IMG/VR virus record: IMGVR_UViG_3300043395_003072
Coordinates: 64,001-128,000 of that record
DNA from: a virus
Length of the DNA: 64,000 bases
Direction: 5' to 3' (one strand)
Positions 5,014-49,695 of the stretch are shown in pieces. Made by a program: the position numbers and the translations under genes. A model generated the notes under the pieces. The model saw only the letters and a list, made by a program, of their open reading frames with translations, was not told where the DNA came from and did no database searches. Every line of letters starts with the position of its first letter. The first letter of the stretch is position 1.

Positions 5014-5014
5014 T

Positions 5015-28593: not shown

Positions 28594-31500
28594 TATGATC
28601 TCCTCTTGAAATAACCTTGTTGACTCCAAACAAAATCTTTAACTTCATCAAAGTATTTATGCTTTTCCATAGCTTCTTTCAATGTATACATTTTTAACAT
28701 TTCATTCAATGCTGTAGTTTCGTTTACCACAAGACCATCATGTATCTCATAGTGCCACCATTCAGTTCCCTTAAAATTACCTTTAGTTAAATAATCATCA
28801 ATTGGTGGAATTCGTACAAAACCTTGATCTTCTAGAATCTTTGTAAGATTAAAAGCTTCTCCTGTCCACTGATATGTACTTTGGTTTTGAAGAGTCTTTA
28901 CTAGACTTACAGTAAAAGTTTGATTTGTTATTAATCCTGTTTCATTTAGTGCCGCATTATATACTGCTTGATCAAAATCAGGTCTAGTTTTAACTATTGG
29001 ACACCATACCGTATAAAGAGATTTTTCATTATTTGGATTGTCTCTTATTACTAAATACACTGTGTCTTCATTTTCATTTATGTTTCCATAAAGACCGCTA
29101 TAAGCTCCAAGATCAATAGCTCTTCCAATATTGTGCATCCCTAATCTGGGCTTATCTATTGTTGATAAGTCTCTTCTTCCTCCACCAGAAGTTAATACTC
29201 CACCAAGCGCTATTATCTTATTATAAGCATTCATATATTTATCTTCAAATTCACTGCTAATACTATTCCGATTATAAGAAACTCCACCATTTTTAATCCC
29301 GAATGCTGGTACTTGCGACCAAGTGAATATTTTTTCTGGTCTAGTACTAGGTATATTTGTTTTTGAATTGTTTATAGCCTCTAAAACTTTTGCTCTTATT
29401 TCATTTTTAATTTGTTCTATTCTTGTTTTCCAGAAATGCCCAACGCTATCTTCTATAAACCTATCGTCTCCACTTTTTCCAACCCATCTTCTTCTTCCAT
29501 ATTTAAACTCTTCAAAAGAGTAAGTCCCTAAAATGCTTTTAGTACCAGCGCTATGATCTTTATTTAGCTTCGCGTTAAGATCTATATGAACAAATCCGTT
29601 ACTACCGGAACCATCCATTACCCTGTTTTCGTTATAGCTATTCTCTCCATATATTCCTAAACCAAATAAACCTAATCCACTATTAAGCAACATTTTAGGA
29701 TTTTTAAGATAGTTTTCTTCCATTAAAATTTCTATAATTCCACAAAGCTCCATAGCGTTTAAGCCATTTACTCTAATGTCTGCCGCTGAGCCATGATAAT
29801 GATTTGAAACAGTATCTCTAATTCCTGTATCTGAACTATCAAAAGTAGAACCTAAAGTTATCTTTAATGGTTTATTAATAAAATTATAATATGGACTATA
29901 ATTATTTAATAAATCTTGAAGAACATCTAAGCAAAGGCAAAGTTGGTATGCGTTGAAGTCTTGATTTAAATCGCTTTCTTCTTCAGTATTAATATAATTT
30001 ACAAGATTAGTTTTAATTTTTGTATTTTTAGAATACCAAAGCTGGCTATTGTAGTATTTTGTTTTCCAATTCAAGAACACATAGCCCTTACTGCCATTAT
30101 TTAAAGCTTCTACGGCTACAGGTTTGCCTTGATTGTCTTTTACGGTTGCTTCGGGATTATTAATCTTAATAATGTTATTTGATTTTAAATTCGAAAGTAT
30201 CTTTCTTTGAAAATCAGACCCAATCTTATTTGAAGCTACTGGTCTTAAATTTTCTTCTCTATAAGATTTACTTTCTCCAAACCTAAAATTTAAACCTGTA
30301 GTATTCGGAGAGCCTTCAATAGTGAAGGTATCTAATGAAGAAATACTAAAGTTTGGTTGAAAAATTCCTATAGTCTCCCCTTCTGCTTCAACAAGAAGTT
30401 TATTTGATTCTTTATAAGAACCAAGAAGTCTTGTAATGAAGCACTCTACCATAAAATTCCCAGCATCAGGTATCGCTGAAAAATTCTTTGCATAGTATTG
30501 AGAGTTAGCTCTTCCTTGTTCAAGAAAGCTTATAATATTTAAATCTACTGCAATATTATCTTTTGCTATGATATTGATCTGAAATTCAGGCTCAATAGAT
30601 CCTAAAAACTGATGTGTTGGGTATTCTTGTCCAAGGATTGGGATAGAACTAATTATATTTCTTAAACTACCTGATACTGCTGTTATTGCATGCCTAGTCG
30701 TTTTTAGATCTTCTTCTGCAATTCCGTATTGCAACATCTCCTCATTTAATATCTCCCTACCAATAATTGCTTCTAAATCTTCTTTACTAAAATCTAAATT
30801 CACTTCACTTATAACTTTTTCTAAAACATTTTCTAGACCTTCAACCCCACTGTATATACTAAAGTTATCATCTATATATTTTTTTAATTCTTTAAAATCA
30901 TTTGCATAAGTTGTTTTTGTTTTCTCTATTCTTGAACTCGAAGTATTAACACCTCGTATATAATAATCTACAATTTCTTTTGATGTAGTGATTGAGCTTT
31001 CTTCTTGATCAATGAAGCCAATTAAAGTTCCTTTTTTTATATTTGCTCTTGCCCATCCATTTTTAACACGCTCAAAAGCACGCAAGTTAAATACTCTATC
31101 CAAGATATTCATTGGGCAGTACATACCTTCAACTTTAAACTCAACATCATTCTTAAACTTTGCTACAAAAAGATTTTCGTCCCAAACTAAAATCTTACCA
31201 TCTTCAGGACAAAATAAAGGAAATATTGCATATCTATCTGAACCTAATTTTCTTTTATTACCAACTATCAAGTTGGTATCACTTGCACGCTTATAGTAAG
31301 GAGTATCTGTTATTGGGTAATAGGTATATTTATTTGCTTCTGTTTCTGGAATAATTGGTATTTCAAAATTTCGCTCATTAGGTTTTAAACTTTCAAAAAC
31401 AACTTCTTTTGAACTGAACATCTCTGGTTTAATTTCTCCAGAAATGCCTTTTAACAAAATCTCAAAATTCTCTTTTCTTTTTGCTTGTTTCTTTTCTAAA

Positions 31501-32459
31501 ATATCTTCTGGGCTCACTCCTTCATCGATAATACTTCTTAGGTATTTATAAAATTCTGGAGTGTATTTTAACAACGCAAAACTTCTAAAATAAAAAACAG
31601 TAGTAGAAGATTTAAATAACATCTTCTCAATCAATTCATTCCTGAACTTTAATAAAGCATTATCTCTTACTGAATGGAAACCTTCAGTGCCTTGCTCGAA
31701 TTTACTCTTTACTAAAGAGTATTCATTTAAATTTTTAATTACAATCCCAAAATTTTCTTCTAAAGAAACTGATTGCAAATAATTAGAATATCTTACGTAG
31801 GCTTTAGAATCTTTGGGTTCTGTTACTGCAAACGAAACTATCGGATTTAAAGCACCAGCCTCTGATTTTAGAGAATTCTCTATTTCTCTAATAGACAAGT
31901 TCCCTGACTCTTCTTGTTTTGTGATAGAAATTATATTTTCTTCACCTTCGATACAGCTAAAGCTAACTCTTTGCTTTTGATCATTTTTTACTAAATCGTA
32001 CCCCCAATCTTCTACATATCTTAAATTTGCATCATATACTTTTTCATTAAAATATCTAAGATCTAACTCAACATTATAACTTCCAATTGAGCTTGGATGA
32101 TTTATAATGTTGAGTCCCATTACTGTAAAATAAAAAACATCACCATTTGATTTTGTATTATCTATTGTTTTTTGTATCCATGAATTTTTAATAAAAACAA
32201 ATGGATTATTTTTAATTTGACAAATAAGTCTATGTAATTGAACTAAACCATCTGGTGGAAAGGTTAAGTTTATTTGCGCATGATATATGCCATTACCCGA
32301 TAAAACTTTTGTAGACACTCTAGTCCTTAATGACTTGATTGAATAATTTAAACCTTCTTTATGCATAGATATACTTGTTGGAGGAACAAATAAACCTATA
32401 TCGTTTATCCAAAAGTTTGGGTCAATATTCAAATTAATAATATTATCAAGTCCACGCAT
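28593..32459 (-). CDS. baseplate hub-associated tail lysin with two peptidase M15 domains
   Basis: Distal-tail/tube-like N-terminus, then Zn-ligand sets SNHYHGSAAD...FVHID (about 29578-29807) and MHNIGRAID...EWWHYE (about 28746-29138). Confidence 0.75.
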   Translation of the reverse strand: MRGLDNIINLNIDPNFWINDIGLFVPPTSISMHKEGLNYSIKSLRTRVSTKVLSGNGIYHAQINLTFPPDGLVQLHRLICQIKNNPFVFIKNSWIQKTIDNTKSNGDVFYFTVMGLNIINHPSSIGSYNVELDLRYFNEKVYDANLRYVEDWGYDLVKNDQKQRVSFSCIEGEENIISITKQEESGNLSIREIENSLKSEAGALNPIVSFAVTEPKDSKAYVRYSNYLQSVSLEENFGIVIKNLNEYSLVKSKFEQGTEGFHSVRDNALLKFRNELIEKMLFKSSTTVFYFRSFALLKYTPEFYKYLRSIIDEGVSPEDILEKKQAKRKENFEILLKGISGEIKPEMFSSKEVVFESLKPNERNFEIPIIPETEANKYTYYPITDTPYYKRASDTNLIVGNKRKLGSDRYAIFPLFCPEDGKILVWDENLFVAKFKNDVEFKVEGMYCPMNILDRVFNLRAFERVKNGWARANIKKGTLIGFIDQEESSITTSKEIVDYYIRGVNTSSSRIEKTKTTYANDFKELKKYIDDNFSIYSGVEGLENVLEKVISEVNLDFSKEDLEAIIGREILNEEMLQYGIAEEDLKTTRHAITAVSGSLRNIISSIPILGQEYPTHQFLGSIEPEFQINIIAKDNIAVDLNIISFLEQGRANSQYYAKNFSAIPDAGNFMVECFITRLLGSYKESNKLLVEAEGETIGIFQPNFSISSLDTFTIEGSPNTTGLNFRFGESKSYREENLRPVASNKIGSDFQRKILSNLKSNNIIKINNPEATVKDNQGKPVAVEALNNGSKGYVFLNWKTKYYNSQLWYSKNTKIKTNLVNYINTEEESDLNQDFNAYQLCLCLDVLQDLLNNYSPYYNFINKPLKITLGSTFDSSDTGIRDTVSNHYHGSAADIRVNGLNAMELCGIIEILMEENYLKNPKMLLNSGLGLFGLGIYGENSYNENRVMDGSGSNGFVHIDLNAKLNKDHSAGTKSILGTYSFEEFKYGRRRWVGKSGDDRFIEDSVGHFWKTRIEQIKNEIRAKVLEAINNSKTNIPSTRPEKIFTWSQVPAFGIKNGGVSYNRNSISSEFEDKYMNAYNKIIALGGVLTSGGGRRDLSTIDKPRLGMHNIGRAIDLGAYSGLYGNINENEDTVYLVIRDNPNNEKSLYTVWCPIVKTRPDFDQAVYNAALNETGLITNQTFTVSLVKTLQNQSTYQWTGEAFNLTKILEDQGFVRIPPIDDYLTKGNFKGTEWWHYEIHDGLVVNETTALNEMLKMYTLKEAMEKHKYFDEVKDFVWSQQGYFKRRS

Positions 32460-32460
32460 A

Positions 32461-35400
32461 TTAATCCCTTATGGATTTTGTAATATAAGAATTAGAGATA
32501 GGCATTCTTCCATCTTGTATACCAAGAAATGCATTGCCTCCAGCGCCAACTACTTTTCTTGCAGACATCATCGCTTCTGAATAAGTTGGTGCTTCTCCAT
32601 ACATTCTGATTGAAGAGTTTCTAGTTACCATAGTCTCTCCTAAATTGATAGGTCTATCGTAAGTATTCATAGGTTCTTCAAATCTACTGGGTGCTACATT
32701 AGCATGCTCTTTATGGTTCATATTGTAAAGATGACGACCGCCTAGTGACTCTCTCGCTCTCATATCAGAAAACTTATTTTCTGCCTCAAGAACTTCAGGA
32801 GAATTTTTTACTCCAACTAAGTATCCTGCTCCCATTGCAGCCGCAGCTAAATACCCACCACCTCTCTTTGAAATAATATCCATATTCATCGCTACAGTCT
32901 CTCTAAGGTTCCTTTGAGCATTCATAATTTCTTCAATTCTATCAACATTAATATCTCCGCTGAATCCACCTTCCATTGAAGAAGCTAAGAGACTCATTAC
33001 TTGCCTCATTGAGAAAGCATCTCCAGATTCTAACACTTTATGCAGTCTTGAGTTTGATCCTAAGTTATGCAAGCCTCTTTCTTTTACAGTTCTTGCCATT
33101 ACATCAAATGTTTCTCTTAAACTATCTCTGTTTAACTGAACGTTATTTAAAGATTCTCTTAGAGACTTGCTTGCTTCTCCTTCTGGAATATTTAGAAACT
33201 CAATATTTCCTAATGTAACGTTGCCTCCTGTTTCGTAAGCAGTTCCCTTAAAAATATTCTGATCAAAGAAATTAAATATAGCTTCTCCACTACCAGAACT
33301 ATAAGAGGTTTTTAGGGCTGATAAGAATTCCACACCAACGTCTGCTGCTACCTGTAAGTGCTTAGCTTTAATGATCAAAGATTCCTGAGCAACCGCAACT
33401 AAAGATGCGCCAGCTCTTAATCTATTGAAATAGGTTCTCATAGCGTCTTCTCCCCCTGCTCCACCTTCATCTACTGCTGCTTGAGCTAAGCCCAACATAC
33501 CTACTTTTATTTGTACGTCTAAGCCACCTACTGACTTAAGAATTCTTTCTTTTTCATATTGATCTAATCTGAAATCCATTATGTTTAATGAGCTAGCCCC
33601 CATTCTTTCTCCGTAAACATCCATACCTCGACCTAGCTCTTTCATATTGATCAAGAATTCAGCACCAGTTCTATATAATCCGTGGAAAGACTCAGCGTTG
33701 TTTTTGAAACGCTCTCTCATGACATTAGTGGTGTCATGATAGACTTGATATATATCTGCATCGAAGTCACCAATTGAAAATCTGCTAAAGTCCATACGTG
33801 ATTCATATTGTAAAAGTTTACCTTTAGCATCATACATTTGTTTGCCTTCTTTAAGTAGATCAGCTTTCACATCTATCTGAGGAAAATAAATTATACCTCC
33901 ACCAACGTCTCCATATGTTTGATGGTAACTAAGTCCTCGCATTAACAGCTTATTTATTCCCTCCCTTACAGTCGTAGTTTGCTCTCCTTCAGCTGTAGTA
34001 TATTTTATCTGCTTATCACCAAAAGTTTCGTCTAATTTTTTTAAATCTTCAAGTCGTGCAATCCTCTTACTCTCTGTTGCTTCTTGTAAAGCCAAAAACA
34101 ACGAGTTAACTCCACCAACTTTATTCCCAGTAGTTTCTATAAATTTCCTGCCTTCTTGACCTACAGCAGCTCTTACAGCTGCATCTTCTTCTGGAGATAT
34201 CTCGTATTGCCTATTTTTAAAGATTTGCCTTCCATCTATTACTACGGGTTTTCCAGCCTCATCTAGCACTGGTGTTTTTCCTTTATTTACATCAGCCATC
34301 AACCTACTTAAGTCAGAATCATATAGTTCTTGCAATTGTGCTTTTATACTTGCAAATTCCGCCCTACTAGCTTCGTACTCTGCTTTAGATGGGAGCGTAT
34401 CTAAGGATTCTGTAAGTTGTTGTAGTCTTGCTTCTTTCGCTTTCACAACATCATCATATTCTGTTTGTACAGCAGCTAGCTGAGCGTTTCTCCCCGCTAT
34501 TAGCTCTTCACGTTTTGCTTTGTAAGCTGCTTTTGCTTGAGCTTGTTCCTCTTTTAAGCTTTCAAAATGAGCAAAAGCATCATTAACTTGTCCTCTTGCA
34601 GCTTCTATTTCTGGACTAGTCATTACTCTTTTAACACTTCCATCTTTATCAGTAATGTCTTTAAAACTTATTCCGCCTGACATTACTGAACTTAAACTTC
34701 TCCTTAGTTCATCTGCTTGTTCTCCTTGAAGATCTCCTCTCAAGACAAAGAATTCAATTACATTATTGCTTTTTATTCCTGAGCTTTTGCTTCCTCTTTC
34801 AATACGCTTAGCCATGTTCTCTTTGAATGCATTTATTCTGTAACTTTTATTCCTAATAAAGTCTCCAACCGTAAAAATACCAGCTTCTTTTAGTCCTGCT
34901 TTATTATAAAGTCCGTAAAATGCTCCTAGTTGTTTTTCAAAACTTGTGCCTGATTTAAACCTCTGAGCAAAATCACCTATCGAAACAAGGTCGTCTGCTC
35001 TGGGCAAGTTCCTTCTTTCTAATTCAAATAAATCTTCTACTTGTTTATCTACAAAAGACAATCTTGCTCGTTCTCTTGCTCTTCTTTCTAATTTTTCTAG
35101 CGCACGTTTCTCTTTTGTAGCAACATTACCTCTTCTTTCTTCACTAGCAGCTTCTCTTTGTTGAAGGTTTTCTTCTTCAACTCCTTCTAATGAACTTAAT
35201 CTTTGCGCTGCTCTATTTTCAGCTCTAGTTAAATCTGCAACCTTAGCTGCCTTTGCTTCACTGTCTTCCTCTTTTGCTAAAGCTGCAAGTCTTGCTCTTA
35301 TATCTCCTAGGCTGCGTCGTCTTTTTTCGATTTCCGTTTTTACTTTAGGCTTTATCTCTCTTGTTACTATTCCTGCTTCTCTTTTTTCAATGATAGCTTT

Positions 35401-38400
35401 TGTTTTAGCAATAAACTCTTTTTCTTTTTTTGTATAAGGAATAACTCTATCGTCGCGAGTTCTACTTAAAATATCATTTACTTCTCGAACAATGTTTTGA
35501 TTTACTCTACCTTCTGTAAAAAAAGAAGATGCCAGTCTATATGCTTTGGCTATTTCATCTGATAGTTGATATCTTGTTTTTCCTGAAGTGCCTTGTCCAA
35601 GTAAATTTAATCTTAACTCTGAGAAAGTTTTACTTAAAGTATCGATTGTTTCGCCTGCTTGCGTTTGTGTAGTTTCGGCCACTAACTGTCTGCTTGTTTC
35701 TATTACATTCTGAAATAAAGCCCCGGAGATAATAGCATTAGTAATCCCAATCCCCTTATACTCAATGTGTCCGTAACCTTCTATTTCTTGAAAAAAACGC
35801 CTACTTGAATCTTCTGGAGATATTTTCATTTCAAGACCAAGAATGCTTCTTAATGTACTTTCTACTTGTTCAAGATGCTCTCGATTAGTGTCGTATTCTT
35901 TTAATTTATTTTGAGCTTTTCTGACAGTTTTCAAAACATCTAAATCTTGAGAATCTGGACCTCCAGATAAAGTATATCTATCATTCTCTGGTCCATATCC
36001 AAAAATGTACTCACCATCACCATGCCTGACTATTGACTTAGTAAAAAGATCAAATACATCTTCTCCTCCTTTAAAAGTACCTGGAGATTCAGGGTTGAAA
36101 ATAGGTTCTCTGGCTAAGCCCCTATGTTCCAAATACGATACTTTACCCTCTCCTTTTCCTACATAATAACCTGTAGGCTTTAAATACCCCTTATCTATTA
36201 AAAATTCTTCAAACGTATTTCTATATTTTGAATCCCCACTCAAATCTATATAATCAGTTATTGCTTGCTTGAATAAGGTTTCATTTCCCTTAAATACATC
36301 TTCAAAAACATTAAGTTTATTTTTTGTTTTTCGTAGTATAGGATCACCTTGTTGGATCTCGAACTTCTTTAAAGTTAATCTTTGTTTAGCTGATTCAAAA
36401 GCTTGATTAACTTGATCAACATAACTGCTTCTAGTACTTTCTCCAATTAGTGGTTCAGAACCTATAATTCTATTTTCACCTAATAAAATATCAGTATCAG
36501 TTTTAACAACTTTTCCTTCTGAAGTTAAAAGCTTAGCATTTGAATCTCCATCACTATCAACTCCCAAGTGCCTTGCATAAGGTTGATTACTAACGCGTTC
36601 TAGCCTTAGGTTAGGGACTTGCTTCATTAACCTCGCTAATCTTTCGCGTTGCCTTGTGATATAATCTGTTTGGGAATATTGAAGCTCAAGGATTCCACCC
36701 CTAATAAAATCTGGGATGTTTTCTCCAAAGCCACTTGAAAAAGGCATTCTAAAACGAATCGAATCTAAAATATCTAGACCTTTATTATACCCCAGAGTAG
36801 AATCAGTTGGATTTACTCTATATTTTACAGCTGCTTGTTTAACTAAATTATTCACAATATTTCTTGCATTAATGCGCTTTTCATAAGCTTCTCTTTGTAC
36901 CCTTTTAAGGTTATCTTTTGCTTGGTCTATTCTTTGTGATGCGCTAGCAAAACGACCCTGAACACTTTCTACGACAGCTTTAGCGGCTTTTAGCTCTGTT
37001 TCAAATCGCTTAGCGTAACTACCTGTAGCGATATTCCTCTCTGCTCTAGTTCTTGTAGCTACAAAGATACTTTCTCCAGCTTTAGTTTTTAAATCTGATT
37101 CTTGAATAGAATCCAAAAGTTTACTTTTCTTTTCTATTTGAAAATCTAAGTTCTTTTTTTGAGGATCTGTATCTTCTAATGCTTTAGCTTCAGTTCGCAA
37201 AGCTGCAATTTCTTCAGTCAGCTTAGTTCTTAAAGCTTCTGCATCGCTAGCAAGTCCAACTCTATAAGTCTCAGTTACAAGTTTAACCCCACCACTTCCA
37301 TCATCTACATAACCTCCCATAATATCTGCTCTTCTTGCATGAAGAGTTTCTCTTGCTAATCTTAGTTCCCCATATATTCTTGCTTTTTCTTGATACACTG
37401 CAGTTACGTCTCTTATATAACTGTTTGTACCGTCCGTTCTCGACTCTATTTTGTATTCGAAGCTATTTTCAATTAGCTCACTCCCAACTACCTCATATCT
37501 TCCTGTTATTTTATTAAACTTTCTTTTTTCTCTAGTCCTCTGTCTATCTACAATTCTATTTCCTTCACTATCAGTTTCAAAAATAGTTTTTCCAAGGATT
37601 CCATGTAGCTCTGCTTTTCTCTCTTTTAGAGCTACAATTTGTTCGAAGCGACTAAGTTTTGCTGCTTCATATTCTTCAAAAGAATTAAATTTAAACTTAT
37701 CTCCATATAAGGTTTTTAATTTTTCATACTTAAGTTGATTCTTTCTTCTCTTTATTTCTGCTTTTCCTTCATCTGTAAATTTAGTCTCATCATATTCGGG
37801 ACCGCCTGAAATTAGCTTAATGAACGGATCGTCCTCTCCTTCTAAGAAATCATAGCGCATGATCTCCATGCCAGGCATAAAGTGAGCAAAATAAATATTT
37901 GGGTTACGCTGTACTGTTGCAAAGATACCTTTCTTTTCTTTATCGTACATTCCAAAATAAAAGTTGCGCATAGCTTCTGTAGTTCTGCGTTCAATTTCTG
38001 CAGCTATTTCAACTTCGTTACCATTAGCAAACTTATCAAATCTTAGTTGACGAGCTGTAGCTTCTTTGAAAGTAGTCATACTATCTAAAAAGCCTTGGCT
38101 ATCTTGAAACAGTACATAGCCTCTTTTCTGGTTGAATGCATCAAGCAAACCCTGTCTTATAGCTGATTGCTCCCCTCCACCTAGCGTTGGAAGTAAAGAA
38201 GAACTAGCTGCATCTTTTCCAAAAACAATTCCTTGCCCCATATAAGTCCCTGATCCACTAATCCTCCCAGTCAATGCATCTCTAAGAGCATATCCAGAAA
38301 CCTTTGCAATCGAACCTCTAGCTGCTTTGAATCCGCTTAAAGCGTATCCAAATTTCACATCGTTTCCACTACTATCAAACATTCCTGAAATAGATGCATT

Positions 38401-41400
38401 TAAGTCTGTAATGTATCGTGTGAATTCATTTTCTATATTTATATTGTCTCCGCTTTTTCCTACTACGAATCCTTCCAGATTTTCTAAAGTTGAAGCTCCT
38501 GGAAGATATATTTTACTTTTTCCACCTGTAATATCTAATATTCTTTTTAGATCCGTTTGATTAGTAAAAAGCTCTTCCAAATTTAAAATAGATCCAGATG
38601 CTCCACCCCTATTTATCAGGAAGTTTTTAACACCTGCTTCATCAGCTCCAAGCCTTATTAACTCTTGAGCTTCAGCTCTACTTAGGGATTTTAAGCTTGA
38701 GATACCTTTTATTTGATTTTCAAAATCAACATTTCCCATTTGACTTAAACTAAAACTAGTTAATTTCATTCCAAGTAAAGCTTCGGGTCTTCCACCAATA
38801 TTATCTTGGCGAGCCAAAAATGATCCAAGGAACCTAGTAGCACTAGACTCATCTAGCCCAAAATTCATTCTCAATGATGAATACAAGTAATTCATAAAGC
38901 GCGGTTCTATCTTTGCAAGATTTCTTGCGTAGTCTGTATGTACGCCACCGCTAGAAACATAATGCGCAGTAAAAGTAATACCTCTTTTAATCTCTTGCAT
39001 AGTTTTATTTGAGTTAAGCCTTGCTCCGCTAGCAAGTCTTTGCTGCACGATAGTTTCAAACTCGCTAGTAGTTAAAAACTTACCAGACCTATCATAAGCC
39101 CCTCCGAGTATTCTCCCCACATCAGCCTCAGTTAAACCGTGAGTTTCTGCAAGATTTAAAACAGCTTGTACTGAAGCACCCATATATGCTTTCTTACGAC
39201 CTAAAGCTCCTGCAGAATCAAGACTGGTGTACGCTTCTCCAGTCATTGAATTGATTGCTTTTAAATAAGCATCGTCGCTTCCGATTAATTTCTTCATCTC
39301 AGCTTCATAAAGATTTCTACCGACTCCAAACAACTCAAGAGACCCAGCTATTTGCGAGCTGATAAATTGAGGTCCTTTCTTAAGTTGTTCAGTTGTAGTT
39401 AACAATGTTTGATTATGTTTCACATTCAAGTCTGTAAAGAAGCTAGATATTTCACTATCACTCAAACCAGCCTGCTTTAACTTTTGTTGCATTTGTGCTT
39501 CTGTAATACCAAAAGTAGTATCTTTTAAGATTGTAGAGAACATCTTAGTTCTATCTAACCTTTGGACCATCTCACCGCTTATATGTGATCTGGTTCGACC
39601 ACTCTCAAAAGAGCTTTCAACAATCCCTAATGTGAAATTCATAATTCCTTTTTTTCTAGAGATAGCAGCTACATCTTCATCGCTAAGCCCTAAAATAGCT
39701 CGACCTTGCCTATCTCCAAATTCTTTAAAGAATTGGTCAACGCTATAGTCCCCCCCCTCTCCAATTACCAAGAAGGGGTTCTTGGTGCCAACTCTGCTTT
39801 TCAAAGTACTAAATAATTTACTTTCAGTTAATCCATCATCATATACAGTCTGATTAATTGAAGATTTTACTTCTAGTGTCCCTCCAAAGTAAGACATACC
39901 TTCACCAAGACCTAAGCCTTGACTTACATTACTACTTAACATTATTGCTCCAAGATTTACTCCATGAACTCTCGAGGCTGTCTTATTTATACCAATCAAA
40001 TCTCCACCACTACCTACGCTTGCTATTGTTCTATTCTTACCAAACCTATAACTTTTATCTACTCCCACTACTCCTGCACCTAATTCATAACGTCCAACCA
40101 TCTGAAAGTCACGTGCAGTTTGCTCGTTGATAACTTCATCTATTCTCCCATAAGGAGCCATTACATTAAATGCAGATTCATTTGCTCTTGCCATTGTTAC
40201 ATCAGTAAAAGAAAGCGTTTTATTTCTATTAAATGGATCTTCAACTCTTGTTATTATTGGATACCCTGTTCCTCTCACATCTTCTGGGTACATTTGCATT
40301 AAGCGCTTAACTAGGTTTTGTTGCATTTCTCCAGGAAAATCTTCTAACCCTGCTATGAGAAATCTAGCACTTTGAACGCTTCTTGCAAACTGCATATTTT
40401 CTTGAAATTGCTTACTTATTAAAGATACTCCTCTTTCATTTTGTATCTCACTAAAATTTGTGAACATTCCTCTTGGAGCATCAAGTCCAGGCATTCTTAA
40501 GAATTCGTAAAAGTTTTTAATGTCTCGCCTAGACATATTATTTAAACTACCAAAATCACCAAACCCCTTAGATACTCTTTGAAAAATATACTCTTCATAA
40601 GAGTAAGAACCCTTCCCTGAGTAAAGATTCCCCCCTCTTGCGGAGGTTAAATCTATATTATTAAATATTTCAGGAGCATTTAATACTCTTTGTGGAGCAA
40701 TATATCTTGTGCTTAAATTCTCTGTAGCTCTAACAACTACCATTCCATTTCTATCTCTAGATAAATAAAGTGGAACTTTTACTGAAGAAGCTTCGTTACC
40801 TACTCTTAAATATAAATTTTTAATTCCTGTCTTGTCAGCATTATCTTCGAATCCAAGCAAACTTACATTATCTGCTCCACCTGCCATTTTTACATAATTG
40901 GCATATCTTGTACGAACTTCATTAACGTCAGCCCCCATATCCTTCAACGTTGCAGCCAACCTTGAGTCTCCTAACCCTGAAAACTCTTCCATCTTAACTT
41001 GTCTCTCTAAGTTAAGAATCGTAGAGCTATCTCTTCCAGATAGAGTGCTTTTTATTTTATCTAATTGCGCAAACTTTCTTCTAAATTTAGAAAGAAACTT
41101 ATCGTTGCTAGCAATGTAAGAATTATAAGAGCTTTCAAGTCTATCAATTTGTTCGCTTGTTAGATTTCCAGTATTATATCCTGATTTTATGATTTCTTTT
41201 AAATCACTTGATCCTAATTCTTTTAAAGAATCATAAAGGCTGCCTAGTAGCGCTCTTTTATCTTCTATTGAAGCATCTGAACTTTCCAATACAGTTCTTA
41301 TTTGAAGATCGTTTTTAAAATCAGCTAGAGCTTGTGTTTTTGCTGCGTTTTGCAATTCTTGCAAAGCCATTGAATCTCTTCTTAAAGAAGAACCTACTCT

Positions 41401-41601
41401 ATTAAATTCACCAGAACCCGTACTGCGGAAAGATCCTATTTTAGAATTTACTTCTTGAACAATATTAGAGCCTTGAAAACTTTTATATCCTGCATACCCA
41501 AGCGCCCCAACTGTTAAAGCTTCTTTACCTATAGAAGACATCTTTTCTTTTACTTCGCTATTATCTTTATTAAATAAGCTTCTTAAAAGTTCACTCGCCA
41601 T
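32461..41601 (-). CDS. giant virion protein, putative single-chain two-barrel DNA-dependent RNA polymerase (tape-measure position)
   Basis: Ordered motifs GEG(567), K686..K693, LTGRISGSG(1110), R1232-N-P, GGGIIYFP(2567), GDFDADIYQV(2611), KSVGG(2689), QESLIIKAKH(2739). Long coiled-coil insertion. GGAGG SD. Confidence 0.7.
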   Translation of the reverse strand: MASELLRSLFNKDNSEVKEKMSSIGKEALTVGALGYAGYKSFQGSNIVQEVNSKIGSFRSTGSGEFNRVGSSLRRDSMALQELQNAAKTQALADFKNDLQIRTVLESSDASIEDKRALLGSLYDSLKELGSSDLKEIIKSGYNTGNLTSEQIDRLESSYNSYIASNDKFLSKFRRKFAQLDKIKSTLSGRDSSTILNLERQVKMEEFSGLGDSRLAATLKDMGADVNEVRTRYANYVKMAGGADNVSLLGFEDNADKTGIKNLYLRVGNEASSVKVPLYLSRDRNGMVVVRATENLSTRYIAPQRVLNAPEIFNNIDLTSARGGNLYSGKGSYSYEEYIFQRVSKGFGDFGSLNNMSRRDIKNFYEFLRMPGLDAPRGMFTNFSEIQNERGVSLISKQFQENMQFARSVQSARFLIAGLEDFPGEMQQNLVKRLMQMYPEDVRGTGYPIITRVEDPFNRNKTLSFTDVTMARANESAFNVMAPYGRIDEVINEQTARDFQMVGRYELGAGVVGVDKSYRFGKNRTIASVGSGGDLIGINKTASRVHGVNLGAIMLSSNVSQGLGLGEGMSYFGGTLEVKSSINQTVYDDGLTESKLFSTLKSRVGTKNPFLVIGEGGDYSVDQFFKEFGDRQGRAILGLSDEDVAAISRKKGIMNFTLGIVESSFESGRTRSHISGEMVQRLDRTKMFSTILKDTTFGITEAQMQQKLKQAGLSDSEISSFFTDLNVKHNQTLLTTTEQLKKGPQFISSQIAGSLELFGVGRNLYEAEMKKLIGSDDAYLKAINSMTGEAYTSLDSAGALGRKKAYMGASVQAVLNLAETHGLTEADVGRILGGAYDRSGKFLTTSEFETIVQQRLASGARLNSNKTMQEIKRGITFTAHYVSSGGVHTDYARNLAKIEPRFMNYLYSSLRMNFGLDESSATRFLGSFLARQDNIGGRPEALLGMKLTSFSLSQMGNVDFENQIKGISSLKSLSRAEAQELIRLGADEAGVKNFLINRGGASGSILNLEELFTNQTDLKRILDITGGKSKIYLPGASTLENLEGFVVGKSGDNINIENEFTRYITDLNASISGMFDSSGNDVKFGYALSGFKAARGSIAKVSGYALRDALTGRISGSGTYMGQGIVFGKDAASSSLLPTLGGGEQSAIRQGLLDAFNQKRGYVLFQDSQGFLDSMTTFKEATARQLRFDKFANGNEVEIAAEIERRTTEAMRNFYFGMYDKEKKGIFATVQRNPNIYFAHFMPGMEIMRYDFLEGEDDPFIKLISGGPEYDETKFTDEGKAEIKRRKNQLKYEKLKTLYGDKFKFNSFEEYEAAKLSRFEQIVALKERKAELHGILGKTIFETDSEGNRIVDRQRTREKRKFNKITGRYEVVGSELIENSFEYKIESRTDGTNSYIRDVTAVYQEKARIYGELRLARETLHARRADIMGGYVDDGSGGVKLVTETYRVGLASDAEALRTKLTEEIAALRTEAKALEDTDPQKKNLDFQIEKKSKLLDSIQESDLKTKAGESIFVATRTRAERNIATGSYAKRFETELKAAKAVVESVQGRFASASQRIDQAKDNLKRVQREAYEKRINARNIVNNLVKQAAVKYRVNPTDSTLGYNKGLDILDSIRFRMPFSSGFGENIPDFIRGGILELQYSQTDYITRQRERLARLMKQVPNLRLERVSNQPYARHLGVDSDGDSNAKLLTSEGKVVKTDTDILLGENRIIGSEPLIGESTRSSYVDQVNQAFESAKQRLTLKKFEIQQGDPILRKTKNKLNVFEDVFKGNETLFKQAITDYIDLSGDSKYRNTFEEFLIDKGYLKPTGYYVGKGEGKVSYLEHRGLAREPIFNPESPGTFKGGEDVFDLFTKSIVRHGDGEYIFGYGPENDRYTLSGGPDSQDLDVLKTVRKAQNKLKEYDTNREHLEQVESTLRSILGLEMKISPEDSSRRFFQEIEGYGHIEYKGIGITNAIISGALFQNVIETSRQLVAETTQTQAGETIDTLSKTFSELRLNLLGQGTSGKTRYQLSDEIAKAYRLASSFFTEGRVNQNIVREVNDILSRTRDDRVIPYTKKEKEFIAKTKAIIEKREAGIVTREIKPKVKTEIEKRRRSLGDIRARLAALAKEEDSEAKAAKVADLTRAENRAAQRLSSLEGVEEENLQQREAASEERRGNVATKEKRALEKLERRARERARLSFVDKQVEDLFELERRNLPRADDLVSIGDFAQRFKSGTSFEKQLGAFYGLYNKAGLKEAGIFTVGDFIRNKSYRINAFKENMAKRIERGSKSSGIKSNNVIEFFVLRGDLQGEQADELRRSLSSVMSGGISFKDITDKDGSVKRVMTSPEIEAARGQVNDAFAHFESLKEEQAQAKAAYKAKREELIAGRNAQLAAVQTEYDDVVKAKEARLQQLTESLDTLPSKAEYEASRAEFASIKAQLQELYDSDLSRLMADVNKGKTPVLDEAGKPVVIDGRQIFKNRQYEISPEEDAAVRAAVGQEGRKFIETTGNKVGGVNSLFLALQEATESKRIARLEDLKKLDETFGDKQIKYTTAEGEQTTTVREGINKLLMRGLSYHQTYGDVGGGIIYFPQIDVKADLLKEGKQMYDAKGKLLQYESRMDFSRFSIGDFDADIYQVYHDTTNVMRERFKNNAESFHGLYRTGAEFLINMKELGRGMDVYGERMGASSLNIMDFRLDQYEKERILKSVGGLDVQIKVGMLGLAQAAVDEGGAGGEDAMRTYFNRLRAGASLVAVAQESLIIKAKHLQVAADVGVEFLSALKTSYSSGSGEAIFNFFDQNIFKGTAYETGGNVTLGNIEFLNIPEGEASKSLRESLNNVQLNRDSLRETFDVMARTVKERGLHNLGSNSRLHKVLESGDAFSMRQVMSLLASSMEGGFSGDINVDRIEEIMNAQRNLRETVAMNMDIISKRGGGYLAAAAMGAGYLVGVKNSPEVLEAENKFSDMRARESLGGRHLYNMNHKEHANVAPSRFEEPMNTYDRPINLGETMVTRNSSIRMYGEAPTYSEAMMSARKVVGAGGNAFLGIQDGRMPISNSYITKSIRD

Positions 41602-41602
41602 A

Positions 41603-44600
41603 TTATCCTCCTAGTGCTCTTGCAATTAACATTTGCATTTCAGGCATTCTATCATCAGTGTAATGTATCTCTGCTCTAGATTGTTCTCCAGTACTAATTC
41701 TATTTAATACAATTTTACTTGAATCTAAATCTGATACATAATTGCTATTTCTAATTAAAGCATTACGAGTCGCATTTCTATGCATACCACCAGGCTGATA
41801 CATAAAAAGATCAGCCCCTTCAAGATAAGGTTTTCTTGATACGTTTCTCACTTGAGATTCCCACATGTCGTAATCGTGTATTTCTTGACCTGAATTATCT
41901 ACATATTTGACTTTAATATCTTCTATATCCACATCCTTATGCCAGCCTATCCAATCTACACTAGGCATTGGTTTATTTCTAAAATACTCTTCCATAAGGT
42001 ACATTTTCTCTCTCATATACTCTTCATCAATTACTGCCTTATCACTAGATAATAAAGAAACATTCTCACCAGAATCTATCCTTGACCATATATTCTGATA
42101 TAAATGCTTTTGATCTTCAGGTACTAGCTCAAGGATTCTTTCTCTTTCATCTTTTTGAGCATTAGCAAAAGCATCAAAAAATCTCTTATCTGCATTTGGT
42201 AACGCCAAATAAACAGAAAGTGCATCTCCATTAGGATTCACTCCTGTTCTAGTTCTAGCTGCTAAACTTATATATCTATTTCTATCTTTTTGGTTTTCAG
42301 CTTGCTCTGCTAATTGCATGTATTTCATAAATTGAAGTTTATCAAAATGCTCATTGATTTCTTCTTTTTTCGTAACATGCATAGGTTTGCTATCAACGCC
42401 CATTATTCTCGCTGCTGAATACATTGCTGGCCTGAACCAGTCCCTTATAGGAGAATCCCAGAAAGGGTTAGCTGTACCGTAAATTCTTTCTGTTTCATAG
42501 ACTTCTATAGCATCTCTAGTGTGTCCTAGAAGTTTAGAAGCAGGTCTAAAACCACCAGGAACTAAATACTCTGCAGCAGATAATCCAGTACGTATTGCAC
42601 TAGTGCCTTTTTCGTACATATATTGAGTTATATCGGAAGCTATAGGGATTCTAATAGCGTTAGGGTGTGGCTCATAGTCTCTTGTAGCAGCAAGTCTTTT
42701 TTGATGGTTCTCTACAATGTTATCGAGCATTTTAGATTCATGCTCTGTTAAAATTCCAGCAGCTTTTCTTTCGTAAAGCTCTTGTTGCATTTTAATTGTT
42801 TGTCTGCTTTGCGGAGCTACATCAGCTAATATCTTATACTTATGAATTAATGGATAGTCTTCAGGGTCTAGTCCAGCTACATCAGGATTTAATGCTTCGT
42901 ACCCTTTACCAGGTAATCTTGCTGAGCCATTAGCTATTGCTCTATAAGGGTCTCCTCGTTTTAACTTCTCCGGGATATAAGAAGGCATTGAGTTTATTAA
43001 TGGGTTATAAGCCTCTATTTCTGCTCTTGGTCTTGGGAATAAACGTCTAATTGGCTCTGACATAAAACCAAAGCCACCAAGTTCTTTTTCCCAATAATCT
43101 CCAATAGAAGAATCCATTGCAGTAGAAGTTGCATACACCGGACTCATCGTTCCTAATACTTCTCTACCAGTAAAAACTTTTTGTATTATATTTTTTGTAT
43201 AACCAGTCAAACCTTCTATTTCTCTAAATGCATACTGAATTCTACCAAGTGCAGGCATTCCTTGATACGGAGAAACTGGTGATCCTGGAGGTATCTCTCC
43301 TAACTCAGGAGAAGAACCGTAGCCTTTAATATAAGCTTGCTCCACTTCTCCACTCTCTTGATTCAATCTAAAGAGCTCATCTTCATGCATCAGTTTAGGT
43401 GGTTTTAATATCTGCCCAATTGTTGATGATAGTAAAGGCCCAAGCACTGGCATATCTTCAAAAGCTGCACCTGTCATTGGGTAGGGTCTATCTTGATAGT
43501 TCTTTTCCTCTAAGTAATAGGTGAAGTTCTTAAGCATGAATCTTGTTATTGGGTTAAAGTTCTCATAATCTTCCCCCCAAACAGATTTCTCATCAGACTT
43601 AGTCATTAACATCTTATAAGCGTGGGGTCTAAAATATGAAGTCTCCCCGCCTTCATAAGGAGTACCTCCAGCTTCCCACCATCGACCTTTCTTTATCTCT
43701 ACAAGCTTCTCTCCTTCATATACTGCTTTAAGCTCATCAGGATCCTCCATCATTCCAAAGAATGCGCCAGTCATCATTTGGTGTATAAAGGCAGTACCTA
43801 ATACTAATGCTCCAAATCTTTTAACAATTGGAGCTGCGCTTAATGATTCTGCTACTTCTTCATAAGTTTTATTTCTAACAAAACTTCCATCTTTAGCTCT
43901 TACATCTTGCTGAACTCCCCCTAGCTTGATATCTACTTCACCTTCAAGGGTAGCTCCAAAAAAAGAATGCACCATTTCTGCACCAAATATTTCAGTGCGC
44001 CTCATCATATTATTAATGAATCCAGATCCTGTTGAATATCTATTATTAATTTCTACGATTTTATTTAATAAAGATTTATTTAAATCATTATCTTTATAAT
44101 ACCTTGTGTGAACTTCAGATCTTGTTGCGTGTGTTAATTTATAGTTCGTATCAAGTATTATTGATTTCAACCTTCCGCTATCTTGCTCATTTAACATTTC
44201 CCTTAAAAGCACTTCATTGTCTGAAAAGAAGCTTCTTAACTTTGATCTGGATTCTTTATCTAGATTATCTAAACTAACATTCTTTATTATAGAATCTAGC
44301 GAAGACTGATACCTTTCTAGAAGTTCTGTTTTTATCTGACCTTTCTGTAGTCTTTCTGCAATTGGATTATACTTTAAGAATTCTTCTGTATGTTTATCTG
44401 CAATTTTCCCAAAACTAATAGCATTAAAAAGTGTTCGCATTTGGATATCTTGTCTTGATCCAGGCAAAGTCACGGATCCGACGATCCCAAGCCTATTTTC
44501 TATTGCTCCATAAACTCCTCTAAAAGCATTATCAAAAGAAGATGAAATTCCTTGCTTTGGTACAGGTTTTCCTTCGGCTCTAGCTTGTTCTCTTAAAAGA

Positions 44601-46042: not shown

Positions 46043-46756
46043 TTAACCTTTCTTTCTTGCGTCTAGCTTTCTCGCCATTGCTTCTTTAGATAACCTAGCT
46101 CGCTCTTCTTCTATGAATCTTTGCTGAGCTTCTTGCACTTCCCAATATCCGAGCTGCTGTTCTTCATACATAGGATTAAAAGCTACTTCTTGTTGAGGCT
46201 TTTCTTTTTTCTTTTCCTCAACAACTGCAGTTTCTTCTATCTTTCCGTAAAGCTCTTCATAAATCTTTTTAAGATCCATTCTTTGGTAACCAGGTACACT
46301 TTTACTTAACTTGTTCTCAGCTGATACAAAGTTAGATATAAACTGTTTCTCGGTCATCTCTTCTATATCTTTAGGAACCATAGAGGAGAAGGCATAGAAT
46401 ATAGTGCTTTTCATATGTTCGTATAGAGAGTCCGGAGACTTCTCTTGTCTTTCTTTTGCTATTTCTAGTAAGAATTCTTCACCACTTTTAGCTCCTGATA
46501 ATTCAAATATTAAACCACCAGTAGATATGATATATCCAGCTGGGATATTTTTATTTAAAAGCTCTACTTCACCAAGAAAACAAATATTAAAAACTTCTTC
46601 ATAAATAAAAAAAGGCGGGATCTTGCCTGCCTTAATTAACTTATTAAAGAAGTTAAACTCTTTTATTTTTAAGAGTTTAAAATCAAAACTTAAATAATCA
46701 TCAAATACTATTCTATAGAGCTCAGAATTTAATTCTAAAGCTCTTGTTAATTTCAT
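46043..46756 (-). CDS. tail assembly chaperone (second, GT-like)
   Basis: PAGYIISTGGLIFELSG is paralogous to the upstream gene. PKDIEEMT..QF resembles a GT-type C-domain. Precedes the tape-measure-position genes. Confidence 0.6.
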   Translation of the reverse strand: MKLTRALELNSELYRIVFDDYLSFDFKLLKIKEFNFFNKLIKAGKIPPFFIYEEVFNICFLGEVELLNKNIPAGYIISTGGLIFELSGAKSGEEFLLEIAKERQEKSPDSLYEHMKSTIFYAFSSMVPKDIEEMTEKQFISNFVSAENKLSKSVPGYQRMDLKKIYEELYGKIEETAVVEEKKKEKPQQEVAFNPMYEEQQLGYWEVQEAQQRFIEEERARLSKEAMARKLDARKKG

Positions 46757-47643
46757 AGCTGAGTCGTTAATAGCATCGCTTGTTGAGGTGTTAAGAAGCC
46801 GCTATTAAGTAGTATCATCTGATACAGAGAATCTAGCACTCCAGCCTTACAATACTCAAGCCAGTTATTATTGAGGCTAGGATAGAGTACGCAATACATT
46901 ACCACTTTCTCTTTAAGCTTCTCCTCTACTTCATCAGCATCCTCGCTTTCACGAAGCTTATTCATTAGCTCTTTAATCTTCTTCCATTCGCTTCTAGTGA
47001 GATGGTGATATACATATACTTCGCCTTCTCCAAAAGCCATTACATGAATACCTGTCCTCCCATAACGATCTTTCCACGCTTGGATAGTATCGTATGAAGG
47101 AGGATTAGGTTCTTGAGCAAGTAGCTCCATAATTTGGTCTCTAACTACAAATGGCTCTTGTCTTGGAGTTTCTTGAACTACTGGAGCTGGGGGAGGAGCT
47201 GGAGGAGCTTTCTTTCTTTCAATTTCATTAGAAAGTTTATTAAGCTCTGCATCTAAATCAATCATAGGTTCTACCTTTTCAATAGGTTTAATTAGCTGCT
47301 CAATTATAGTCTTGGGCTCTTCAACTATAGGAGCCTCAATAGGCTTTAGCAACTCTTTTTTTGCTTCTAAAGCTTGTTGCCTTTTTCTTTCTCTGCGATA
47401 CTTTGGAGCGTTTAATAACTCTTCAGTTTCTCTTTTTTTTTGAGCCTCAAGTTCTATTGCCCTTACTTCTTCTTCAATAGCTTTTACTTCTTGATCCATA
47501 GGAATAAAAGCAGAAGGAGGCAATGACTTGATAATAGAATCTGCACTAGGAGATTTTCTTTTAAGTGCATTAAGAGCTTTTTCTGAAACAGGGCTTCCAA
47601 ACATTACTAAGTTGTCATCTAGTTTTCTGCCTTCAAATCCCAT
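46753..47643 (-). CDS. tail assembly chaperone (first) with low-complexity N-terminal extension
   Basis: C-domain IQAWKDRYG..IH....YVYHHLTRSEW...CVLYP...KAGVLDSLYQMILLNSGF is TAC-like. Pro/Glu-rich N-half. Confidence 0.65.
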   Translation of the reverse strand: MGFEGRKLDDNLVMFGSPVSEKALNALKRKSPSADSIIKSLPPSAFIPMDQEVKAIEEEVRAIELEAQKKRETEELLNAPKYRRERKRQQALEAKKELLKPIEAPIVEEPKTIIEQLIKPIEKVEPMIDLDAELNKLSNEIERKKAPPAPPPAPVVQETPRQEPFVVRDQIMELLAQEPNPPSYDTIQAWKDRYGRTGIHVMAFGEGEVYVYHHLTRSEWKKIKELMNKLRESEDADEVEEKLKEKVVMYCVLYPSLNNNWLEYCKAGVLDSLYQMILLNSGFLTPQQAMLLTTQL

Positions 47644-49623: not shown

Positions 49624-49640
49624 TTTGCTTTCCTCCTAAT

Positions 49641-49663
49641 GAAAAAGGGGCTTACGCCCCTTC
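49641..49663 (-). terminator. intrinsic terminator after tail tube gene
   Basis: Minus strand AAGGGGC-GTAA-GCCCCTT followed by more Ts: GC stem, GNRA loop, U-tract. Confidence 0.85.
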
Positions 49664-49695
49664 AATTACATTTTATATTTTATATAACTTATTAA

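What the first reader, a model, noticed from the sequence alone, without database searches (positions are those of the whole stretch)
32461..41601. Giant tail-module protein looks like a virion-packaged single-chain two-barrel RNA polymerase
Seen: motifs occur in the order GLGEGMSYF (E567), TKMFSTILKD (K686/K693), LRDALTGRISGSG (1110), ATVQRNPNIY (R1232), GGGIIYFP (2567), SIGDFDADIYQV (2611-2620, nt 33754-33771 for GDFDAD), KSVGG (2689) and QESLIIKAKH (2739). Established: two-barrel polymerases have a beta-type DPBB with an acidic (ED/DG) motif and two lysines (E. coli beta DKMAGRHGNKG), then a beta'-type DPBB reading RQNLLGKRVDYSG...VLLNRAPTLH...GKAIQLHP...NADFDGDQMAV. Single-chain members (QDE-1-type RdRPs, SPbeta YonO, crAss-like phi14:2 gp66) fuse them in this order and continue with G-containing and ..AK helices. 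Inference: this ORF is such an enzyme. Its position between the tail chaperones and the hub suggests it is a virion component injected to transcribe early genes. That would be a virion RNAP in a contractile-tailed phage with strong SD sites, a different setting from crAss-like podoviruses, and it would normally be annotated as a tape measure.
Basis: partly seen in the sequence, partly recalled or inferred. Interest (0 to 1): 0.95.

Follow-up and report, generated by a model that had tools for sequence, protein, structure and literature searches.

The report
RNA polymerase in phage tape-measure slot
A 3,046-residue protein encoded where a contractile-tailed phage normally keeps its tail-length ruler is a one-chain RNA polymerase of the cellular type, with its catalytic barrel interrupted by a 1,300-residue insert; the phage probably injects it to switch on its first genes, which include a second polymerase.

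Summary
Confirmed. ORF 32461-41601(-) is a single-chain two-barrel RNA polymerase. Across 89 full-length homologues D2612 and D2616 (89/89), D2614 (88), R1232 (89) and K686 (88) are near-invariant; K693 is K/R in 88; E567 is acidic in only 65. An AlphaFold2 model of a short-insert homologue (pLDDT 91, pTM 0.90) returns 19 RNA polymerases as its top 19 of 48,161 chains (QDE-1 Z 10.1, P74-26 gp62 9.6, P23-45 gp96 7.4). One DPBB spans both sides of the variable insertion (Arg-to-Asp distance 110-1,493 aa). The tail module matches Bacillus phage 0305phi8-36 and Acinetobacter phage ME3 gene by gene; this ORF fills the slot of gp146, a mass-spec-confirmed virion protein called the tape measure. Cultured ME3, WH1 and KLEB27-3 carry polymerase motifs in that slot. 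This genome and three complete relatives also encode a second putative polymerase in a divergent GC-rich block, as in Thermus phage P23-45. Packaging and activity are inferred, not shown. The closest precedent is P23-45 gp96, not crAss gp66. This scan has noted tape-measure-slot polymerases before in other genomes.

The parts
32461..41601 (-). 3,046-aa single-chain two-barrel RNA polymerase gene (P0001), in the tape-measure (gp146) slot of the tail module
40165..41601 (-). N-terminal region (aa 1-479); aa ~220-470 align with the N-terminal part of beta/Rpb2 subunits
   Evidence: own model pLDDT 91.8; rows aligned from model residue 23
38917..40164 (-). beta-type barrel region (aa ~480-895) with E567 (nt 39901-39903), K686 (39544-39546), K693 (39523-39525)
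   Evidence: Z about 10 to beta/Rpb2 over model 19-459; conservation
38257..38916 (-). Helical connector / clamp-like region (aa ~896-1115)
   Evidence: aligns with the N-terminal clamp of beta'/Rpb1 chains (rows 9, 14-16, 19; rows 18, 37)
37828..38256 (-). First half of the beta'-type (catalytic) barrel, aa ~1116-1258, with R1232-N-P (R at nt 37906-37908)
   Evidence: R 89/89, P 89/89; DPBB hits start at model 681
33940..37827 (-). About 1,300-aa hypervariable, charged (33% D/E/K/R) insertion splitting the catalytic barrel
   Evidence: about 25-33% identity even to a homologue that is 94% identical in the catalytic segment
33727..33939 (-). Second half of the catalytic barrel (aa 2555-2625) with the Asp triad D2612/D2614/D2616 (nt 33754-33771)
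33202..33726 (-). Bridge-helix / trigger-loop-like helices (aa 2626-2800), with invariant E2685 and K2747
   Evidence: QDE-1 alignment extends to model 1177; naming of the helices is by analogy
32461..33201 (-). Conserved C-terminal region (aa 2801-3046): a Gly/Ala-rich helix and a terminal module, candidate virion-anchoring part
   Evidence: conserved in the family; function inferred
41603..46039 (-). 1,478-aa orthologue of 0305phi8-36 virion protein gp145; alternative candidate for the true tail ruler
   Evidence: BLASTP 8e-23 to gp145, 8e-43 to ME3_35; length 1,308-1,478 in relatives
46043..47643 (-). Two tail-chaperone genes (296 aa similar to gp143; 237 aa in the gp144 position)
   Evidence: 6e-7 to gp143, 3e-15 to ME3_33; second gene by position only
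47645..50655 (-). Tail tube (319 aa) and two tube paralogues (517, 142 aa)
   Evidence: 4e-34 to gp140, 2e-9 to gp141, 2e-8 to gp142
50685..53228 (-). Contractile tail sheath (847 aa)
   Evidence: PHROG 16991 tail sheath 1.5e-12; ME3_29 2e-11
22879..32459 (-). Baseplate hub, split into 1,288-aa and 1,916-aa genes (gp147 equivalent)
   Evidence: gp147 6e-12; ME3_37 2e-22 and 2e-5
20363..22035 (-). gp150-like and baseplate-J-like (gp151) genes
   Evidence: Baseplate_J Pfam in the same slot of relatives

Best explanation
P0001 is an active single-chain, two-barrel DNA-dependent RNA polymerase. It is made late with the tail proteins, built into the virion through the tape-measure-slot assembly pathway, and ejected on infection. 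In the cell its two barrel halves fold together, with the 1,300-aa insert looping out. It then transcribes the GC-rich block at the genome end (G000 144.5-158.5 kb), whose genes include a second, non-virion two-barrel polymerase (2,119 aa) that would take over later transcription: a P23-45/N4-like relay. Supported by computation here: the fold, the conserved catalytic residues, the insertion, the slot orthology and the second polymerase-like gene. Inferred: activity, packaging, ejection, template choice and the relay. My estimates: two-barrel polymerase fold 0.97; active 0.9; virion-packaged 0.8; relay to the second enzyme 0.65.
For: Conservation in 89 homologues. AF2 model of P0051:440-1630, pLDDT 90.7, pTM 0.90. 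Top 19 of 48,161 chains are all two-barrel polymerases: QDE-1 Z 10.1 (rmsd 4.7, 388 aligned), RDR2 9.8, gp62 9.6 (4.4, 320), gp96 7.4 (4.8, 316); stand-alone DPBB domains align over model 681-953, across the insertion site. The window's own aa 200-1270 model (pLDDT 91.8) has beta/Rpb2 chains as its top 9. The two own halves dock with score 0.63 against a best control of 0.00 (mark reached by 58 of 80 solved and 2 of 110 mismatched pairs; runs share at least 55% of contacts; partner pLDDT 47-54). In that model aa 1228-1232 pair with 2618-2623 and G566/E567 touch the Asp-bearing half; halves of one domain tend to pass by likeness to solved structures. Gene order is conserved in every relative examined and orthologous to 0305phi8-36, where gp145 and gp146 are virion proteins by mass spectrometry. 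A second DxDGD protein lies in a divergent GC-richer block in this genome and in 3 of 3 complete relatives; one has BLAST 2e-7 to the YonO-like gp99 and one a weak PF05183 hit, E 0.002.
Against: There is no virion, expression or activity data for any family member, and no cultured phage has a sequence-detectable homologue. The full two-barrel model is of a homologue (34-46% identity in the core), not of P0001. Z-scores are moderate (10.6 at most) and Foldseek gave no E below 0.001. E567 is not invariant. gp146 itself, the slot protein with virion evidence, has no DxDxD and no detectable similarity to P0001, so packaging is inferred from position. The second polymerase was not folded, and its family has Gly in place of the conserved Arg.
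Confidence: 0.78

Rival explanations
1. The polymerase chain is itself the tape measure. It lies unfolded in the tail tube as the ruler, the variable helical insert tunes tail length, and the enzyme refolds after ejection. This is a refinement of the best explanation, not an alternative to the polymerase identity.
For: It fills the slot assigned to the tape measure in 0305phi8-36 on the basis of tail length (PMC2147016). The insert is charged and hypervariable and grew at least twice independently. Its C-terminus resembles those of gp146, WH1 gp095 and KLEB gp034 by eye.
Against: About 1,650 aa are a conserved globular enzyme. No strongly hydrophobic segment was found. The neighbouring gp145 orthologue is length-stable and could be the ruler. 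The C-terminal likeness was not detected by an HMM.
Confidence: 0.25
2. It is a real polymerase but not packaged: a non-virion enzyme for middle or late genes that merely sits in the late operon.
For: No direct virion evidence. SPbeta YonO is a non-virion single-chain late polymerase (own knowledge).
Against: It is translationally coupled between tail chaperones, the gp145 orthologue and the hub (1-nt gaps). Late expression would be useless for a non-packaged enzyme. A separate polymerase-like gene already lies in the early block. The slot proteins are annotated as virion or structural in 0305phi8-36, WH1 and KLEB27-3 (mass spectrometry is stated only for the first).
Confidence: 0.1
3. It is a structural protein derived from a polymerase, and the giant insert has inactivated this copy.
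For: A 1,300-aa insert inside the catalytic barrel is extreme. gp146 shows that the slot can work without a DxDxD motif.
Against: All catalytic residues are retained in P0001 and its long-insert relatives. The catalytic segment is 94% identical to P0002 while the insert is about 25-33% identical, which indicates purifying selection on the core. The insert lies at a site that already carries 70-100 extra residues in all family members.
Confidence: 0.07
4. The enzyme uses RNA templates (RdRP-like) or acts as a primase rather than transcribing early genes.
For: The best single-chain structural matches are QDE-1 and RDR2.
Against: Those rows are tied within 1 Z unit with DNA-dependent enzymes. The characterised phage members gp66, gp96 and gp64 are DNA-dependent (PMC10770324; bioRxiv 2020.03.07.982082).
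Confidence: 0.05

Closest known systems
Thermus phage P23-45 gp96 (tape-measure-fused virion RNAP) with gp64 non-virion RNAP (Chaban et al. 2024, PMC10770324; PDB 8H2M/8H2N, gp62 8F5M)
   Same: Single-chain two-barrel polymerase in the tape-measure gene position; a second polymerase in an early block transcribed divergently from the terminase/structural genes; fold matches Z 7.4 and 9.6.
   Different: Contractile tail. The polymerase forms most of the chain rather than an N-terminal 1,100-aa addition to a 3,800-aa ruler. A clamp-like region is present, whereas gp96 is clamp-less. The Arg-to-Asp distance is 1,380 aa against 38. No sequence similarity was detected. The two polymerases here show no sign of being duplicates.
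crAss-like phage phi14:2 gp66 (bioRxiv 2020.03.07.982082; PDB 6VR4)
   Same: Large single-chain two-barrel polymerase, virion-packaged, transcribes early genes, rifampicin-resistant.
   Different: Podovirus (own knowledge); host polymerase handles middle and late genes; weaker structural match here (Z 5.6, rmsd 6.8, 486 aligned).
Bacillus phage 0305phi8-36 / Acinetobacter phage ME3 tail module (PMC2147016)
   Same: Gene-by-gene orthology of tube, tube paralogues, chaperone, gp145, hub, gp150 and gp151; sheath via ME3_29; related major capsid protein.
   Different: gp146 lacks a DxDxD motif and its only described polymerase is gp99 near the genome end. ME3_36, WH1 gp095 and KLEB27-3 gp034 in the same slot do carry Arg-x-Pro and DxDxD motifs but are annotated as hypothetical or structural.
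QDE-1 / RDR2 eukaryotic RdRPs and YonO-like phage enzymes (PF05183)
   Same: Fused barrels in the same order; best single-chain fold match (Z 10.1 and 9.8).
   Different: No PF05183 hit for P0001. The early-block second polymerase, not P0001, has the more YonO-like motifs.
phiKZ/AR9 jumbo-phage and N4 virion + non-virion RNAP pairs (PMC7824862)
   Same: Two-polymerase strategy with one enzyme packaged.
   Different: phiKZ-type enzymes are multisubunit; N4 enzymes have the unrelated T7-type palm fold.

Membership tests
Two-barrel RNA polymerase superfamily | DxDxD Mg-binding triad in the beta'-type DPBB | tested here: met
   89/89, 88/89, 89/89; lies in a loop inside the DPBB span 681-953 of the model
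Two-barrel RNA polymerase superfamily | Conserved Arg-x-Pro upstream, in the same barrel | tested here: met
   R1232 and P1234 89/89; its strand pairs with aa 2618-2623
Two-barrel RNA polymerase superfamily | Second (beta-type) DPBB with two basic residues | tested here: met
   Z about 10 to beta/Rpb2; K686 88/89, position 693 K/R 88/89
Two-barrel RNA polymerase superfamily | The two lysines lie next to the Asp triad | tested here: inconclusive
   coordinates not available; K686/K693 are not among the confident interface residues, which is no evidence either way
Two-barrel RNA polymerase superfamily | Acidic residue (ED/DG motif) on the beta-type barrel | tested here: inconclusive
   E/D in 65/89; E567 is in the interface with the Asp half
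Two-barrel RNA polymerase superfamily | Bridge helix and trigger loop after the catalytic barrel | tested here: met
   long helices at model 969-1075; alignments to QDE-1 and beta'/Rpb1 run through to model ~1180
Two-barrel RNA polymerase superfamily | Template-directed RNA synthesis | not testable with these tools
   needs an assay
P23-45 gp96-type TMP-fused virion RNAP | Polymerase encoded in the tape-measure gene position | tested here: met
   after the chaperones and the gp145 orthologue, before the hub; gp146 slot
P23-45 gp96-type TMP-fused virion RNAP | N-terminal polymerase fused to a long TMP with membrane and peptidase domains | tested here: not met
   only ~250 aa follow the core; no 19-residue window reaches hydropathy 1.4; no Pfam domain
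P23-45 gp96-type TMP-fused virion RNAP | Flat, clamp-less structure | tested here: not met
   a ~220-aa ordered connector aligns with beta'/Rpb1 clamp regions; model-based
P23-45 gp96-type TMP-fused virion RNAP | Second, non-virion polymerase in a pre-early block | tested here: met
   by motifs and position in G000, G001, G003, G004; fold not modelled
P23-45 gp96-type TMP-fused virion RNAP | Sequence homology to gp96 | tested here: inconclusive
   the whole-family HMM does not report gp96; only the short Arg-x-Pro block scores above 200 shuffles
P23-45 gp96-type TMP-fused virion RNAP | Present in purified virions | not testable with these tools
   indirect only: gp146 in the same slot is MS-confirmed
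crAss-like gp66 virion RNAPs | crAss-like podovirus context | tested here: not met
   sheath, tube and baseplate J present; capsid related to ME3 and 0305phi8-36
YonO / RdRP (PF05183) | Profile match over the curated cut-off | tested here: inconclusive
   no hit for P0001 or its genome; fold similarity to QDE-1 and RDR2
0305phi8-36/ME3-like contractile tail module | Sheath, tube plus paralogues, two chaperones, gp145, giant slot gene, hub, gp150, gp151 in order | tested here: met

The most novel reading that the evidence does not exclude
The tail ruler and the polymerase are one and the same chain. The enzyme is stored unfolded in a contractile tail tube, tail length is tuned by growth of a helical insert inside the catalytic barrel (Arg-to-Asp distance 110-1,493 aa across the family), and the two barrel halves must find each other after ejection to become active.
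Probability: 0.25. Interest if true: 0.92.

Novelty: new variant of a known kind. Interest (0 to 1): 0.72.

Why it matters
It extends the injected single-chain polymerase plus second polymerase strategy, shown so far in one Thermus siphophage group, to a broad lineage of contractile-tailed phages (89 full-length members here, several from Tara marine metagenomes) that Pfam, PHROG and PDB sequence searches all miss. The published survey filter (Arg-x-Pro, then 20-100 residues, then DxDxD) would reject all 89, whose shortest spacing is 110. It puts the tape-measure label of the gp146 slot in doubt and points to cultured phages (ME3, WH1, KLEB27-3) in which packaging and activity can be tested now. 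It also offers a natural series showing how large an insert a catalytic DPBB tolerates, and a system for asking how a 190-340 kDa enzyme passes through a tail tube.

Tried and rejected
Pfam, PHROG and PDB sequence or profile searches: nothing for P0001 or its alignments. tblastn of GenBank phages with P0001 and two distant members: nothing. GTDB genome scan: no relative, so no host assignment. Foldseek: no E below 0.001, although the lists were dominated by polymerases. ESM Atlas shape search: TM 0.21 or less, uninformative. hhalign and hmmsearch of the family against ME3_36, gp146, WH1 gp095 and KLEB gp034: not significant, so their link rests on slot, motif order and, for ME3_36, ESM features (0.91, 24 of 30 hits with PF05183) and two block scores (1/200 and 0/200 shuffles). 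A second DxDGD at aa 1682 inside the insert is rejected as chance, since it is absent from P0002 and P0003. Naturally split forms: P0021 is cut by a contig end; P0023 lies in a three-piece locus of a polished long-read assembly and was not resolved. Atlas features for the 1,478-aa neighbour were below 0.9 and uninformative. No paper on KLEB27-3 or WH1 was in the library.

Full report
Observation. The ORF at 32461-41601 (minus strand) encodes 3,046 aa. The window belongs to a 158,462-bp virus record, estimated complete. Pfam, PHROGs, PDB sequence search and GenBank phages return nothing for the protein.

Family and conservation. Three searches gave 89 full-length homologues of 1,514-3,265 aa. 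D2612, D2616, R1232, P1234, E2685 and K2747 are invariant. D2614, K686, G1116, G2567 and G2569 are 88/89, and position 693 is Lys or Arg in 88/89. Conservation falls into two blocks, aa 1-1258 and 2555-3046, with no conserved column between 1300 and 2500. The Arg-to-Asp distance runs from 110 to 1,493 aa (1,380 here), while the rest of the chain is 1,523-2,046 aa. In a tree of the core, the two groups with inserts above 1,300 aa are separate, so the insert grew at least twice. The insert is 33% charged against 23-24% in the core, and only about 25-33% identical to a homologue that is 94% identical in the catalytic segment.

Fold. Homologue P0051 has a short insert, so both barrels fit in one model: pLDDT 90.7, pTM 0.90. 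Against 48,161 PDB representatives the top 19 rows are all two-barrel polymerases: a plastid polymerase chain Z 10.6, QDE-1 10.1 (rmsd 4.7, 388 aligned), RDR2 9.8, P74-26 gp62 9.6, Rpb1/beta' chains 7-8, P23-45 gp96 7.4; phi14:2 gp66 scores 5.6. The N-terminal part (model 19-459) matches beta/Rpb2 chains at Z about 10. The C-terminal part matches beta'/Rpb1, and isolated DPBB domains align over model 681-953, on both sides of the insertion point. The window's own aa 200-1270 fold at pLDDT 91.8, and their top nine matches are beta/Rpb2-type chains. The window's two halves, folded as separate chains, scored 0.63 against a best control of 0.00. That mark was reached by 58 of 80 solved and 2 of 110 mismatched pairs; the runs shared at least 55% of contacts and the partner's pLDDT was only 47-54. 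Strand 1228-1232 pairs with 2618-2623 and G566/E567 contact the Asp-bearing half. Halves of one known domain type tend to pass this test by likeness, so it supports the split-barrel geometry but does not prove it. Z-scores are moderate and Foldseek reached no E below 0.001; the case rests on the uniformity of the hits together with the invariant residues.

Genomic setting. The order sheath, tube, two tube paralogues, two chaperones, 1,478-aa gene, polymerase, hub, gp150-like gene, baseplate J is kept in the relatives examined. By BLASTP it is orthologous, gene by gene, to the tail modules of Bacillus phage 0305phi8-36 and Acinetobacter phage ME3. The 1,478-aa gene is the gp145 orthologue. P0001 occupies the slot of gp146, annotated as a hypothetical tape measure and found in virions by mass spectrometry; that label rested mainly on tail length (PMC2147016). 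gp146 has no DxDxD and no detectable similarity to P0001. ME3_36, WH1 gp095 and KLEB27-3 gp034 in the same slot do carry Arg-x-Pro followed by DxDxD, and the ME3_36 catalytic region scores 0.91 by language-model features with RdRP-family clusters. These are not sequence-confirmed members of the P0001 family.

Second polymerase. Outside the window, the genome has a GC-rich block (58-62% against 31-38%) from about 144.5 kb, transcribed away from the terminase and structural genes. It encodes a 2,119-aa protein (149471-155830) with a conserved DG motif, two conserved lysines, a DSDGD motif and a downstream motif like that of P23-45 gp64; its family has Gly where the Arg is expected. All three complete relatives checked have a DxDGD protein in a comparable divergent, GC-richer block. 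One hits the YonO-like gp99 at 2e-7 and one hits PF05183 weakly. This argues against a chimeric assembly, although reads could not be checked. It mirrors P23-45, where the virion enzyme gp96 transcribes a terminal pre-early block that encodes the non-virion enzyme gp64 (PMC10770324).

Mechanism. The most likely reading (0.78) is a late-made, virion-borne, injected DNA-dependent RNA polymerase that transcribes the terminal early block and hands over to the second enzyme. Fold, residues, slot and second gene are computed results; activity, packaging and relay are inferences. Whether the chain is also the tail ruler is open (0.25). No strongly hydrophobic segment was found, and the length-stable gp145 orthologue is an equally good candidate for the ruler.

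Comparison and novelty. [quoted passage not shown] It works like P23-45 gp96 but is not a member of that family: no long TMP tail, a clamp-like region, a contractile tail, no detected sequence link. It is not crAss-like. I found no paper describing this family, and the published survey filter of 20-100 residues between Arg-x-Pro and DxDxD would exclude all 89 members. This scan has noted tape-measure-slot polymerases in other genomes, including 0305phi8-36-like ones; those notes are unchecked and are not counted as support. Verdict: new variant of a known kind, interest 0.72.

Noticed in passing
L010:9472-15831 (+), G000 149471-155830: 2,119-aa second putative single-chain two-barrel polymerase in a GC-rich early block; its family (16 sequences) has an invariant Gly where the conserved Arg is expected. 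Not folded.
   Followed up: partly
L010 about 4900-8140 (+), G000 144921, 146296, 147216, 148077: Four type II hammerhead-like ribozyme cores in intergenic spacers of the early block, each behind a repeated hairpin; two reach Rfam RF02276 at 26 bits, below the gathering score. Not found in the early blocks of G003 or G004; one pattern match in G001.
   Followed up: partly
early blocks of G001, G003, G004 (L026, L044, L035/L043): Repeated hairpin + T-run + short conserved motif ahead of early genes; candidate terminator/promoter elements for the phage polymerases.
   Followed up: no
L065:14173-18984 (ME3_36), L071:15277-22824 (WH1 gp095), L072:16634-23938 (KLEB27-3 gp034): Cultured phages whose gp146-slot proteins carry Arg-x-Pro and DxDxD motifs but are annotated hypothetical or structural; ME3 showed no second DxDGD-type protein in a motif scan.
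   Followed up: partly
L012 about 2467-7900 (G000 20.4-25.9 kb): JAB peptidase, ThiF/E1 and a ubiquitin-like gene: a phage ubiquitin-like conjugation cluster.
   Followed up: no
window 32461-32560 and 41603-41700: P0001 and the 1,478-aa protein end in a similar strand followed by Asp-x-Arg, also seen in relatives and, by eye, in gp145 and gp146; an HMM of the P0001 end did not detect the cross-match.
   Followed up: partly
window 22879-32459: The baseplate hub is split into two genes here and in some relatives, but is one gene of 2,600-3,500 aa in others.
   Followed up: partly
L006:5059-12691: The polymerase gene is in three ORFs (1,439, 188, 896 aa) with the breaks in the insert region, in a polished long-read contig; assembly error or a natural split, unresolved.
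   Followed up: no
P0003, P0015 and L026:12974-19501: Helix-hairpin-helix (PF12836) hits in two tail-slot polymerases (position not checked) and in the early polymerase of G001.
   Followed up: no
L011:13550-17497 (-): 1,315-aa protein with an SNase-like domain at the start of the structural module, conserved in size in G001.
   Followed up: no
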